A DNA stretch of 64,000 bases from Escherichia coli O157:H7 (GTDB lineage Bacteria; Pseudomonadota; Gammaproteobacteria; Enterobacterales; Enterobacteriaceae), in assembly GCF_013167455.1 (NCBI RefSeq), contig NZ_CP038328.1; one strand, given 5' to 3'. A program made the position numbers. Below, one piece after another: positions 15,001 to 18,000 of this stretch (positions within the stretch are counted from its first letter, which is position 1; each line of letters begins with the position of its first letter).

Positions 15001-18000
15001 GGCTATGAGTATCGTCGTGATGACGATATGGCGTTATGGAGTTCTGCGGATCTGACTTATTCCATTACATACGAGATGTGAGGACGATATGGCAACACCA
15101 AATCCCCTTGAGCCGGTAAAAGGTGCCGGTACCACTCTGTGGGTTTACAACGGCAAGGGTGATGCTTATGCAAACCCGTTGTCAGACGATGACTGGCAGC
15201 GACTGGCTAAGGTGAAGGATCTGACGCCGGGCGAGATGACGGCAGAACCCTACGATGATAACTACCTGGATGATGAAGACGCGGACTGGACCGCGACCGG
15301 GCAGGGGCAGAAGTCTGCAGGAGATACCAGTTTTACGCTGGCCTGGAAACCGGGAGAAGAAGGTCAGAAAGGGCTTATAGGCTGGTTTGAAAGCGGGGAT
15401 GTGCGGGCCTATAAAATCCGTTTCCCAAATGGCACGGTGGATGTGTTCCGTGGCTGGGTCAGCAGTATCGGTAAGGCCGTGACGGCGAAAGAAGTGATCA
15501 CCCGCACGGTGAAAGTCACTAACGTGGGCAAACCTTCCGTGGCGGAAGAACGCAGCGAAATTACGCCGGCCACTGCAATTAAGGTGACACCGACATCCGG
15601 TACGGTGGCAAAAGGGAAAACAACCACCCTGACTGTTTCTTTTGAGCCGGAAAGTGCAACCGACAAGACGTTCAGAGCGGTTTCCGCCGATCCGTCGAAA
15701 GCCACCATTAGTGTGAAAGATATGACAATTACGGTAAACGGCGTGGCGACAGGTAAGGTGCAGATCCCTGTGGTGAGCGGAAATGGTCAGTTCGCCGCAG
15801 TGGCTGAAGTCACCGTTACTGAAGCGGGCGCTGCAGGGTAAACGGAGGTAATACATGTTTCTGAAAACAGAACAATTTGAATATAACGGTGTGTCCGTCA
15901 CGCTTTCCGAATTGTCTGCGCTGCAGCGGTTTGATTATATAAAGTTTGTTTCAGACGCAGAACAACAGGAGACAACGAAGCATGATGTCGTGCACATTAA
16001 CCAGCGATATCTGGAAACGGCATCCCTGCTTGTGGCGATGTCGCTATGGCATTCCCATTCCCTCAAAGGCACTCTGGCCTCTCCGGAGACAGAGATGCAG
16101 CAGATCCGCCGTGAAGTGATGCTGGGATGGCCTGCTGATGCACTGAATCAGGCAACGAACCGGGTGCTTTATCTTTCAGGTATGCTGGATAACCGGCACG
16201 ATGCCGATCCTGAACAAACCGGTAAAGCAGAAGCGACTGAGTCGGTAACATCAAAAAAGCATTCGAAGGCGAGCTGAACTTTGTCCTGAAACTGGCGCGA
16301 GAGATGGGGAGACCCGACTGGCGCGCCATGCTTGCCGGGATGACATCCACCGAATATGCCGACTGGCGACGTTTTTACTGCACGCATTATTTTCAGGATA
16401 CCCAACTGGACGCTCATTTTTCCGGGCTGATGTACGCCGTACTCAGCCTGTTTTTTGGCGATCCGGATATGCATCCGGCGGATTTCAGTCTGCTTGCTCC
16501 AGCGTGTGAGGAAGAGCAGACGGAGATGCCGGACGAGGAAGAAATGCTGATGCAGAAAGCGACAGGAGTTGCCGGAGGCGTCCGGTTCGGAGGGGACGGA
16601 GGGCGCGATATTTCACCTTCTGCGGATGTGGTGGATGTCAGCGAGGATGATGTTGCATTAATGATGGCTTCAGCGGGGATTTCCGGAGGTGTGAGATATG
16701 TCCCAGCCAGCGGGTGATCTGGTTATTGATTTGAGTCTGGATGCGGCCCGGTTTGATGAACAGATGGCCCGGGTACGCCGTCATTTTTCCAGTCTGGAGG
16801 CGGATGCCAGAAAAACCGCCAGTACTGTTGAACAGGGGCTGAGCCGACAGGCGCTGGCGGCACAAAAAGCCGGGATATCAGTCGGACAGTATAAGGCTGC
16901 CATGCGCACACTGCCCGCACAGTTCACGGATATTGTCACTCAGCTTGCCGGTGGTCAGAATCCCTTCCTTATCATGCTGCAGCAGGGGGGGCAGATCAGC
17001 GATTCATTCGGTGGACCGCTCAGCCTGCTTACCCTGCTGAAGGAGGAACTTCTCGGGATCAGGGATGCCTCTGAATCATCAGAGGAGTCGCTGTCAGATA
17101 CGGCAAATGCACTGGCTGAAAATGCCCGGAATGCCGGTGAGCTGGGACGATTTATGTCGGTGGCCCGTGTGGCGGCAGGTGGCGGGGTTGCCGTACTGGC
17201 CGCGCTTGCTGCCGCCGCCTGGCAGGCAGAGCAGGCTGACCGGGCCTTATTGCGTTCACTGATCCTGACCGGAGGGGCGGCTGCCACCACAACGGCAGAA
17301 TTGTGGAAAATGGCCGGGGTGATCAGCGATGAAGCCGGTGGTGGTATCAGACAGGCGGCAGAAAATCTGGCCCGTCTGGCAGAAAGCGGGAAATATACCG
17401 CCGGGCAGCTACGGATCATGGGGGAAACCTCTCAGAGATGGCTGCAGACGGTGGGGGACGATGCCGGGAAGGTGGAAAAAGCCTTTGAAGGGATTGCAGC
17501 AGATCCGGTGAAGGCGCTGGCCTCCCTGAATCAGCAGTATAACTTCCTGAGCGTTTCCCAGTTACGCCATATTGATGAGCTTGAGCGCACGAAAGGTAAA
17601 CAGGTTGCGGTGACGGAGGCGATGTCCCTGTTTGCGGATGTCATGAATGCACGTCTGGAGCAACTTGATAAAGCGGCCACGCCGGTGGAAAAAATCTGGG
17701 ACGATGTTAAAACCTGGACTTCTGACGCATGGGCATGGATAGGTGATCATACACTGGGGGCACTCAGTCTGATCACTGACGTGGTGGCCGGAACCGTTGA
17801 ACAAGTGAAGCTGCTGCTTGTGCAGGGGGATCTGGCGCTGGCTGAATTTATTCAGTCAGCCTGGGAAACGACAAAGAATGTGCCCGGCGTTGGTGCGTTG
17901 TTTGGTGAACTGGCAGAAGAGAACCGCGTATTTATTGAGAAAACAAAACGCGATGAACTGGCGCTGAGAAAATCCATTGCGGAACGGGATGCGCGTATAC

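What the first reader, a model, noticed from the sequence alone, without database searches (positions are those of the whole stretch)
16253..16259. G-T programmed frameshift uses A_AAA_AAG rather than lambda's G_GGA_AAG
The slippery heptamer at the end of G is the dnaX-type A_AAA_AAG. A -1 shift here joins G to the downstream T frame exactly, so the recoding mechanism is conserved but the site differs, which may change frameshift efficiency.
Basis: partly seen in the sequence, partly recalled or inferred. Interest (0 to 1): 0.25.

Follow-up and report, generated by a model that had tools for sequence, protein, structure and literature searches.

The report
Lambda-type G-T tail frameshift site
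This is the ordinary ribosome slip site that lets a lambda-like prophage of E. coli O157:H7 make a little G-T fusion protein for tail assembly. It uses the heptamer A_AAA_AAG instead of lambda's G_GGA_AAG, a common swap that published measurements show is equally efficient in the same reporter context.

Summary
AAAAAAG lies at 16253-16259 in phase A_AAA_AAG with gene G (15855-16277), six codons before G's stop. It sits inside the 37-nt stretch where the -1 frame (T) is already open. A -1 slip gives a 287-aa G-T fusion, join(15855..16259,16259..16717).

The heptamer occupies exactly the codons that carry G_GGA_AAG in lambda. G is Pfam PF06894 and T is PF06223, and they lie between the V and H homologues.

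Relatives show three forms at this position: A_AAA_AAG, G_GGA_AAG and G_GAA_AAG. The A-site part A_AAG is invariant in 11 of 11 diverse phages. The ATG that RefSeq uses as the T start (16304) is a Phe codon in 6 of those 11, and the T-frame peptide is conserved from the heptamer onward.

The window is an O157:H7 prophage next to uspF/ompN/nifJ. This G-T sequence is at least 99% identical in 510 complete E. coli genome records. A_AAA_AAG is already published as a tail-chaperone slip site in O157 prophages, though in the other chaperone family.

Isogenic reporter data give the two heptamers equal efficiency (0.29 vs 0.28 %, 4.3 vs 3.8 %, 39 vs 43 %). No dnaX-like upstream Shine-Dalgarno element is present. 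A conserved downstream structure is predicted but unproven.

Verdict: real and ordinary, of low interest. Its practical value is an annotation correction.

The parts
15089..15841 (+). Major tail tube gene (lambda V homologue), immediately upstream of G
   Evidence: Pfam PF16461 Phage_TTP_12 (E 1e-68) plus a C-terminal Big_2 Ig-like domain. Annotated as a phage tail protein.
15855..16277 (+). Gene G, tail assembly chaperone (140 aa). This is the zero-frame product and ends at TGA 16275-16277.
   Evidence: PF06894 Phage_TAC_2, E 6e-35. 42% identical to lambda G over all 140 aa without gaps. RefSeq WP_000479046.1, 'phage tail assembly chaperone G'.
16241..16277 (+). G/T overlap. This is the only stretch where both the G frame and the -1 (T) frame are open.
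   Evidence: The -1 frame has a stop at 16238-16240 and G's stop is at 16275-16277.
16253..16259 (+). Slippery heptamer A_AAA_AAG (zero-frame codons TCA AAA AAG). The P-site and A-site tRNA-Lys re-pair to AAA AAA in the -1 frame.
   Evidence: Phase shown. It is the only in-phase V_VVA_AAG in 17,556 positions. It sits at the same position as lambda's G_GGA_AAG. It is kept in 71 of 82 relatives retrieved by protein similarity; 10 have GGGAAAG and 1 has a deletion.
16259..16717 (+). T segment, read in the -1 frame after the slip (152 codons plus stop). Predicted fusion gpGT = join(15855..16259,16259..16717), 287 aa.
   Evidence: Translation. PF06223 Phage_tail_T. 70% identical to lambda T, starting at residue 2 of this segment. 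Peptide conservation begins right after the heptamer in 11 phages.
16304..16306 (+). ATG used by RefSeq/PGAP as the start of a separate T gene. Most likely an internal Met codon.
   Evidence: Annotated as the T start. The codon is TTC/TTT (Phe) in 6 of 11 relatives. The only purine-rich stretch upstream (GAGAG) abuts the ATG with no spacer. The T frame has no ATG/GTG/TTG between 16241 and 16304.
16268..16336 (+). Candidate downstream RNA structure. An outer helix (16268-16274 with 16330-16336) starts 8 nt after the heptamer and encloses a hairpin (16293-16308 with 16313-16328). Its role as a stimulator is inferred, not shown.
   Evidence: MFE -34.4 kcal/mol, z = -3.15, 0 of 200 shuffles fold as well. 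The same architecture is predicted in lambda. RNAalifold recovers both helices in a consensus of 11 phages. Covariation is weak and confounded by coding constraint. PMC4066793 Table S4 flags a conserved downstream hairpin for the lambda gpG cluster.
16698..19310 (+). Tape measure gene (lambda H homologue). It overlaps the end of T by 20 nt.
   Evidence: PF06791 TMP_2 and PF09718 Tape_meas_lam_C. ORF coordinates.

Best explanation
This is the programmed -1 ribosomal frameshift site of the lambda-type tail assembly chaperone genes G and T, in a lambdoid prophage of E. coli O157:H7.

Most ribosomes translate G to its stop and make gpG (140 aa). A small fraction pause with tRNA-Lys on AAA (P site) and AAG (A site) of A_AAA_AAG. 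Both tRNAs slip back one base onto AAA AAA, and translation continues from 16259 in the T frame. The result is a 287-aa gpGT fusion.

By analogy with lambda, many gpG and a few gpGT coat the tape measure protein H, and the T part recruits the tube protein V. Neither protein ends up in the virion.

The heptamer differs from lambda's only in the P-site codon (AAA Lys instead of GGA Gly). The A-site element A_AAG, which drives slippage in E. coli because its single tRNA-Lys pairs weakly with AAG, is unchanged.

What is shown and what is inferred:
- Shown here: the anatomy, the homology, and the conservation of the site and of the T-frame peptide.
- Inferred from lambda and from reporter studies: that the slip occurs and that its rate is low (about 0.3-7 %).
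- Speculative: a contribution from the predicted downstream structure.
For: - Phase and frame geometry are right.
- G is PF06894, T is PF06223, and they lie between the V and H homologues. They are 42 % and 70 % identical to lambda G and T.
- The heptamer is at the same codons as lambda's G_GGA_AAG.
- Of 82 relatives retrieved by protein similarity, 81 carry AAAAAAG or GGGAAAG at that spot; the other one has a deletion.
- Eleven diverse phages all keep in-phase A_AAG, preceded by AAA, GGG or GGA. In phage LLS the site GGAAAAG is annotated as a -1 frameshift site with a joined CDS. HK97's analogous gene is annotated as a -1 frameshift join.
- The T-frame peptide (A/V)(F/L)x(G/S)ELxFxLxLARE(M/F)GRPDW is conserved from the first codon after the heptamer. 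Third codon positions are the most variable there (0.33-0.40 against 0.12-0.22). The Met at 16304 is Phe in 6 of 11.
- It is the only in-phase V_VVA_AAG in the window's long ORFs.
- Literature: lambda gpG:gpGT is about 30:1 and is essential for tail assembly (PMC5009743). Lambda shifts about 4 % of the time and the rate depends on tRNA-Lys thiolation (PMC3296357). A_AAA_AAG, G_GGA_AAG and C_CCA_AAG are the three best E. coli heptamers, with near-equal rates (PMC4066793). A tail-chaperone A_AAA_AAG cluster in O157 prophages is listed as a case where -1 frameshifting is 'safely inferred'. Two genes from an HK97-like tail-chaperone cluster measured 6-7 % frameshifting (PMC3711429).
Against: - There is no direct evidence here for the fusion protein.
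- RefSeq annotates G and T as separate genes, with T starting at ATG 16304.
- The prophage may not be inducible, so the site could be conserved by descent rather than by present selection. Most relatives that carry A_AAA_AAG are very close to the window.
- The exact 287-aa fusion is on record only once, and there it comes from an A7 tract in an indel-rich assembly, not from an annotated slippage.
Confidence: 0.9

Rival explanations
1. T is an independent gene translated from its own start at ATG 16304, as RefSeq annotates it. The heptamer in G would then be incidental.
For: An ATG exists at 16304 in the T frame, and PGAP calls a 137-aa 'phage tail assembly protein T' from it. That 137-aa protein is recorded on about 1000 contigs.
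Against: - The codon is Phe in 6 of 11 homologous phages.
- The 15 T-frame codons upstream of it are conserved as protein, with variation concentrated at third positions.
- There is no properly spaced Shine-Dalgarno sequence; GAGAG abuts the ATG.
- In lambda, T is made only as the GT fusion, and the G part is what binds the tape measure (PMC5009743).
- An in-phase top-class heptamer at the homologous codons in every relative is not expected by chance.
Confidence: 0.04
2. The fusion arises mainly by transcriptional slippage. RNA polymerase adds one extra A in the A6 tract, giving an mRNA in which G and T are in frame. The protein would be identical to the ribosomal product.
For: The site contains six consecutive A residues. 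An inserted A gives exactly the same 287-aa protein, as the A7 assembly variant shows. Lambda's GGGAAAG could not do this, so this would be a real difference from lambda.
Against: - Productive transcriptional realignment in bacteria is reported for longer runs: An with n > 7, Tn with n > 8 (PMC3711429).
- Sister lineages do the same job with GGGAAAG or GGAAAAG, which have only 3-4 A residues, so the ancestral and conserved mechanism is ribosomal.
- The invariant part is A_AAG in phase, which is the signature of tRNA-Lys slippage (PMC5009743).
Confidence: 0.03
3. The site is a relic. The prophage is cryptic and its tail genes are not expressed, so the heptamer is kept only because too little time has passed for it to decay.
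For: O157:H7 carries many lambdoid prophages; there are up to 8 places per genome with this G-T segment. Related copies with damage exist, such as a 31-nt deletion over the site in L044 and a K gene flagged as a pseudogene in CP030767.
Against: - In the window all tail ORFs from Z through J are intact.
- The heptamer is kept in G alleles down to 77 % fusion-protein identity (L077) and in 23 distinct G proteins.
- Near-identical G-T is carried by Stx1a-converting phage genomes deposited as complete phages.
- This rival concerns present use, not what the element is.
Confidence: 0.03

Closest known systems
Bacteriophage lambda G / G-T programmed -1 frameshift (Levin, Hendrix and Casjens 1993; Xu, Hendrix and Duda 2004, 2013, 2014)
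   Same: - Same gene families (PF06894 G, PF06223 T).
- Same V-G-T-H order and same 140-aa G.
- Slip site at the identical codons, ending 18 nt before the end of the G stop.
- Same A-site A_AAG and the same conserved T-frame peptide after the site.
- Same predicted downstream helix architecture.

   Different: The P-site codon is AAA (Lys) instead of GGA (Gly), that is, three G-to-A changes in the heptamer. The junction dipeptide is Lys-Lys instead of Gly-Lys. The base 3' of the heptamer is C instead of U. The G protein is only 42 % identical.
N15 / phi80 / HK97-type tail chaperone frameshift sites (G_GAA_AAG)
   Same: Homologous G-T (HK225, mEp213, LLS, Kp4865-4, mEp460, Providencia PSTCR8lys) or an analogous PF06222 chaperone with a PF06223 T part (HK97). 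All have an in-phase A_AAG at the end of the first ORF, and some are annotated as -1 frameshift sites.
   Different: The P-site codon GAA re-pairs to GGA with a G:U pair at the middle position, so the site is not a perfect X_XXY_YYZ. In the window the re-pairing is fully cognate.
E. coli O157:H7 Sakai prophage Sp9 gene ECs1801 (cluster A_AAA_AAG_25 of Sharma et al. 2014, PMC4066793 Table S4)
   Same: It is an O157 lambdoid prophage tail assembly chaperone with an in-phase A_AAA_AAG just before its stop (AGA AAA AAG TAG), followed by a PF06223 T domain in the -1 frame. The paper lists -1 frameshifting there as 'safely inferred'.
   Different: The chaperone part belongs to a different family (PF06222 Phage_TAC_1, HK97 gp13 type). 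BLASTP against the window's G gives E = 0.99. It therefore documents the heptamer in the same functional slot, but not in this gene.
E. coli dnaX tau/gamma frameshift signal
   Same: Identical heptamer A_AAA_AAG, decoded by the same single tRNA-Lys (mnm5s2UUU) (PMC5009743; PMC3711429).
   Different: dnaX has an upstream Shine-Dalgarno-like stimulator and a strong nearby hairpin, shifts about 50 % of the time, and yields a shorter product. Here no SD-like motif lies within 25 nt upstream, the product is longer, and the expected rate is a few per cent.

Membership tests
Conserved tail assembly chaperone -1 frameshift of long-tailed dsDNA phages (lambda G/GT type) | Two overlapping ORFs lie between the major tail gene and the tape measure gene. 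| tested here: met
   V 15089-15841, G 15855-16277, T frame 16241-16717, H 16698-19310.
Conserved tail assembly chaperone -1 frameshift of long-tailed dsDNA phages (lambda G/GT type) | [quoted passage not shown] | tested here: met
   The T frame is -1 relative to G in all intact relatives. ATG 16304 is Phe in 6 of 11 relatives, and there is no other start codon between 16241 and 16304.
Conserved tail assembly chaperone -1 frameshift of long-tailed dsDNA phages (lambda G/GT type) | A slippery heptamer lies in the X_XXY_YYZ phase inside the overlap. | tested here: met
   A_AAA_AAG at 16253-16259, in phase, is the only such heptamer in the 37-nt overlap.
Conserved tail assembly chaperone -1 frameshift of long-tailed dsDNA phages (lambda G/GT type) | Sequence homology to lambda gpG and gpT. 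| tested here: met
   PF06894 at 120 bits (cut-off 27) and PF06223 at 45 bits (cut-off 25.9). BLASTP against lambda gives 4e-36 and 2e-72.
Conserved tail assembly chaperone -1 frameshift of long-tailed dsDNA phages (lambda G/GT type) | The fusion protein is actually produced at a low fixed ratio to the short product (about 1:30 in lambda). | not testable with these tools
   This needs protein analysis. The only indirect support is published rates for the same heptamer and for related genes.
dnaX-type frameshift cassette | A_AAA_AAG heptamer. | tested here: met
dnaX-type frameshift cassette | An upstream Shine-Dalgarno-like stimulator about 10 nt 5' of the heptamer. | tested here: not met
   The 25 nt upstream (CAGAAGCGACTGAGTCGGTAACATC) contain none of GGAG, GAGG, AGGA, GGGG, GGGA, AGGG, GGTG or GTGG.
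dnaX-type frameshift cassette | A stable stem-loop a few nucleotides downstream that stimulates shifting. | tested here: inconclusive
   A predicted helix starts 8 nt downstream (z = -3.15) and is conserved in the alignment consensus, but covariation is weak and the region is coding.
dnaX-type frameshift cassette | The frameshift yields a truncated product at about 50 % efficiency. | tested here: not met
   Here the -1 frame stays open for 152 codons after the slip, so the shifted product is the longer one. Efficiency cannot be tested with these tools.

The most novel reading that the evidence does not exclude
The switch from G_GGA_AAG to A_AAA_AAG could be functionally meaningful rather than neutral. 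With both slipping tRNAs being tRNA-Lys(mnm5s2UUU), a 3' C, and the conserved helix starting 8 nt downstream, this lineage might set a different G:GT ratio from lambda. That ratio might also be more sensitive to the host's tRNA thiolation and sulfur status. In addition, the A6 tract might add a small transcriptional or mutational (A6 to A7) route to the fusion. All carriers found belong to one G allele cluster, which is compatible with co-adaptation of the site and the chaperone.
Probability: 0.12. Interest if true: 0.3.

Novelty: new member of a known kind. Interest (0 to 1): 0.08.

Why it matters
It matters mostly for annotation. RefSeq/PGAP and most phage records list G and T as two separate genes, with T starting at an internal Met. 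The biologically relevant product is almost certainly a 287-aa G-T fusion, join(15855..16259,16259..16717). This affects hundreds of O157:H7 genomes and Stx1a-converting phage records.

Biologically it adds a tidy example: in this chaperone family only the A-site A_AAG is fixed, and the P-site codon can be GGA, GAA or AAA. It does not open a new question. The mechanism, the heptamer and its efficiency class are all well established.

Tried and rejected
1. I first took Sharma et al.'s cluster A_AAA_AAG_25 (ECs1801) to be this very gene, because the first close match (CP030767) sits in an Sp9-like prophage at ompW. Fetching Sakai Sp9 showed that ECs1801 is a PF06222 chaperone unrelated in sequence to the window's G. 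The window itself lies next to uspF/ompN/nifJ. The paper is therefore a precedent for the heptamer in the same role, not a description of this gene.

2. I used CP030767 CDS coordinates for a background count before noticing that the window is only 98.9 % collinear with it. I redid the count with the window's own ORFs.

3. I looked for an already annotated fusion. The exact 287-aa protein exists once, but only because that assembly has A7 and many indels.

4. I tested the predicted downstream structure for covariation on 11 and then 66 unique sequences. Pairs are highly conserved, but compensatory changes are few. Five pairs changed on both sides, and 59 of 500 shuffles did as well. The RNAalifold covariation term was -0.08. 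I therefore do not claim a stimulator.

5. I searched for a dnaX-like upstream SD and found none.

6. I could not retrieve Xu et al. 2004 or 2013, or Levin et al. 1993. Whether they list this allele's heptamer, or define lambda's need for downstream sequence, is unchecked.

7. A 1174-aa minus-strand ORF looked like a second J gene. It is nifJ.
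Full report
**Observation.** The window reads ...GTA ACA TCA AAA AAG CAT TCG AAG GCG AGC TGA at 16245-16277. 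Gene G starts at 15855 and encodes 140 aa ending ...SVTSKKHSKAS. The heptamer AAAAAAG at 16253-16259 is therefore phased A_AAA_AAG, as tandem -1 slippage requires.

The -1 frame has a stop at 16238-16240. It is then open from 16241 to the stop at 16715-16717. G and the -1 frame thus overlap only in 16241-16277 (37 nt), and the heptamer is inside that stretch. After a -1 slip the next codon is GCA at 16259, and the reading continues A F E G E L N F V L K L A R E M G R P D W ... V P A S G. The fusion is 287 aa, join(15855..16259,16259..16717).

**Is it more than chance?** The bare string is common: 24 copies on both strands against about 13 expected. Phase is what counts. In the 48 longest non-overlapping ORFs of the window (17,556 in-phase positions) there are 57 X_XXY_YYZ heptamers. 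Only one belongs to the efficient E. coli class V_VVA_AAG, and it is this one, six codons before the G stop. The expectation for the 11 in-phase positions of the overlap is 0.0006.

**What the genes are.**
- G matches Pfam PF06894 (lambda tail assembly chaperone G, 120 bits).
- The -1 frame product matches PF06223 (minor tail protein T).
- The upstream gene is a lambda-type tube protein (PF16461 plus Big_2).
- The downstream gene is a lambda-type tape measure (PF06791, PF09718).
- Against lambda itself, G is 42 % identical over all 140 residues without gaps. T is 70 % identical, starting at the second codon after the slip.
- Lambda reads ...TCT GCG GGA AAG TGT TCG ACG GTG AGC TGA. Its G_GGA_AAG sits on exactly the same codons, and both heptamers end 18 nt before the end of the G stop.

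**Where the window comes from.** The G-T segment is 100 % identical in many complete O157:H7 genomes. It is at least 99 % identical in 510 records and is found in 2358 of 5426 E. coli genomes at lower identity. It is 99.5-99.7 % identical in Stx1a-converting phage genomes and 94 % identical in VT1-Sakai. The window as a whole is 99.9 % identical over 20000-44000 to strain FRIK1989, where the prophage abuts uspF, ompN and nifJ. RefSeq annotates G and T as separate CDSs, with T starting at ATG 16304 and no slippage join.

**Comparative evidence for the slip site.**
- Of 82 relatives retrieved by protein similarity (79 IMG/VR loci, the CP030767 prophage, lambda and VT1-Sakai), 71 have AAAAAAG at the homologous position. 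Ten have GGGAAAG, and one (L044) has a 31-nt deletion across the site.
- Eleven phages spanning the family show three forms. A_AAA_AAG occurs in the window and VT1-Sakai. G_GGA_AAG occurs in lambda, ev099 and Stx2a_EH0474. G_GAA_AAG occurs in HK225, mEp213, LLS, Klebsiella Kp4865-4, mEp460 and Providencia PSTCR8lys.
- The four bases A_AAG are invariant in all eleven, while the surrounding G sequence is poorly conserved.
- In phage LLS the depositors annotated GGAAAAG as the -1 frameshift site with a joined CDS. HK97's analogous gene is likewise annotated as a -1 frameshift join.
- All 65 A-form G proteins recovered (23 distinct sequences) fall in one cluster at 75 % identity or more. The G form occupies several other clusters. 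The A form therefore looks like the property of one G allele lineage. That retrieval required the heptamer, so it cannot measure loss.

**Evidence that T is read through the slip and not from its own start.**
- The T-frame peptide is conserved from the first codon after the heptamer: AFEGELNFVLKLAREMGRPDW in the window, VFDGELSFALKLAREMGRPDW in lambda, and VLASELNFAMKLAREFGRPDW in HK225.
- Between the G stop and ATG 16304, variation is concentrated at T-frame third positions (0.33 against 0.12 and 0.18).
- The Met codon at 16304 is Phe in 6 of 11 relatives.
- There is no ATG, GTG or TTG in the T frame between 16241 and 16304. The only purine-rich stretch before the ATG abuts it directly.

**Mechanism.** E. 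coli has a single tRNA-Lys (mnm5s2UUU) that pairs weakly with AAG and better with AAA. This is why X_XXA_AAG heptamers are the most shift-prone in E. coli (PMC5009743; PMC4066793). In the window both the P-site tRNA (AAA) and the A-site tRNA (AAG) are tRNA-Lys, and both re-pair perfectly with AAA AAA. In lambda the P-site tRNA is tRNA-Gly, moving from GGA to GGG. By analogy with lambda, gpG and gpGT in about a 30:1 ratio chaperone the tape measure, and the T part recruits the tube protein (PMC5009743). Lambda shifts about 4 % of the time, and the rate rises when tRNA-Lys is under-thiolated (PMC3296357). These steps are inferred for the window, not shown.

**Efficiency.** Sharma et al. measured all 64 heptamers in one reporter context:

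| Heptamer | No stimulator | IS911 stimulators | IS3 pseudoknot |
|---|---|---|---|
| AAAAAAG | 0.291 % | 4.255 % | 39.0 % |
| GGGAAAG | 0.277 % | 3.801 % | 43.0 % |

(PMC4066793 Table S3.) The authors class C_CCA_AAG, G_GGA_AAG and A_AAA_AAG together as the best motifs. They note that the 3' context can raise the unstimulated rate about 12-fold, to about 3.7 %. The heptamer swap by itself is therefore expected to be close to neutral. The base after the heptamer is C here and U in lambda, and C is reported as generally more shift-prone after A_AAA_AAG (PMC5009743). Two genes of an HK97-like tail-chaperone cluster measured 6-7 % (PMC3711429). The passages I read do not state the heptamer of those two constructs.

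**Stimulators.** No SD-like motif occurs in the 25 nt upstream, so the dnaX analogy stops at the heptamer. Downstream, 16260-16345 folds to -34.4 kcal/mol (z = -3.15). An outer helix, 16268-16274 with 16330-16336, starts 8 nt after the heptamer. It encloses a GC-rich hairpin, 16293-16308 with 16313-16328. Lambda folds the same way, and RNAalifold recovers both helices from 11 phages. In that set 85.8 % of cells pair, against 45 % or less when partners are slid. One pair (16268/16336) switches between G-C and A-U across clades. But only 5 pairs change on both sides (59 of 500 shuffles do as well), the covariation energy term is -0.08, and the region encodes a conserved peptide. Sharma et al. 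also flagged a conserved downstream hairpin, and no SD, for the gpG cluster. I treat the structure as a candidate only.

**Rivals.**
- Independent initiation of T at 16304 is the database annotation, but it is contradicted by the comparative data above.
- Transcriptional slippage on A6 would give the same protein. However, reported bacterial cases use runs longer than 7 (PMC3711429), and sister lineages with only 3-4 A residues do the same job.
- A relic site in a dead prophage cannot be excluded for this particular copy, but the tail ORFs are intact.

**Relation to what is known.** This is a member of the lambda G/GT frameshift family by every feature testable here. The heptamer is the best-known bacterial slip site, and it is already published as the slip site of an O157 prophage tail chaperone (ECs1801, Sakai Sp9; PMC4066793 Table S4). 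I checked that gene. It is a PF06222 (HK97-type) chaperone unrelated in sequence to the window's G, though it is followed by the same PF06223 T domain and uses in-phase AGA AAA AAG TAG. I found no paper that names the heptamer for this PF06894 allele, and I could not open Xu et al. 2004. I therefore file it as a new member of a known kind. In practice it is a routine variant present in hundreds of sequenced genomes.

**Verdict.** Novelty and interest are low. The useful output is the corrected gene model for GT.

Noticed in passing
L093 (GCA_003742765.3, RLKF03000006.1) 1890-1906; homologous to window 16244-16259: One NCBI assembly has AAAAAAAG (A7) instead of A6 at the slip site, so G and T are fused in frame. 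The called 287-aa protein equals the predicted frameshift product exactly. The assembly has 7 gap openings in 3.9 kb against the window, and its U, V and H genes are split, so this is probably a homopolymer sequencing error rather than a real constitutive-fusion mutant.
   Followed up: yes
L044 (IMGVR_UViG_2869970738_000006), homologous to window ~16250-16280: This relative has a 31-nt deletion that removes the heptamer and the G stop. T then lies in the +1 frame relative to G, so no G-T fusion is possible. It is probably a decaying prophage.
   Followed up: partly
window 16304-16717 (and RefSeq WP_000533440.1): PGAP systematically annotates T as a free-standing 137-aa protein starting at an internal Met, with no ribosomal-slippage join. 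That protein is recorded on about 1000 contigs. This is a widespread gene-model error for this family.
   Followed up: yes
whole window, both strands: The string AAAAAAG occurs 24 times against 13.0 expected (no shuffle of 100 reached 24). Only the copy in G is in the slippery phase within a long ORF. The reason for the general excess was not examined.
   Followed up: partly
window 30971-32084, minus strand: The porin gene ompN next to the prophage is split into two overlapping ORFs (30971-31738 and 31713-32084). In the near-identical strain FRIK1989 it is annotated as a frameshifted pseudogene.
   Followed up: no
window 27764-29815: Three consecutive DUF1076 (NleG-like type III effector) genes sit at the tail-fibre end of the prophage, just before the chromosomal gene uspF. 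This is typical effector cargo of O157 lambdoid prophages.
   Followed up: no
window 16252-16506: The third frame (-2/+1 relative to G) stays open for 85 codons after the heptamer. There is no sign of conservation or use, so it is probably chance in GC-rich coding sequence.
   Followed up: no
L092 (E. coli Sakai NC_002695.2) 20002-20681, prophage Sp9: Sakai Sp9 carries a different, HK97-type tail chaperone (PF06222) that also ends in an in-phase A_AAA_AAG and is followed by a PF06223 T domain. HK97 itself has G_GAA_AAG. The same heptamer interchange therefore occurs in two unrelated chaperone families fused to the same T domain.
   Followed up: yes
window 20345-21088 vs L001/L091 (NZ_CP030767.1): The lambda K homologue (C40 peptidase) is intact in the window and in FRIK1989, but it is flagged as a pseudogene with an internal stop in the otherwise 98.9 % identical prophage of strain 2017C-4109.
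   Followed up: partly
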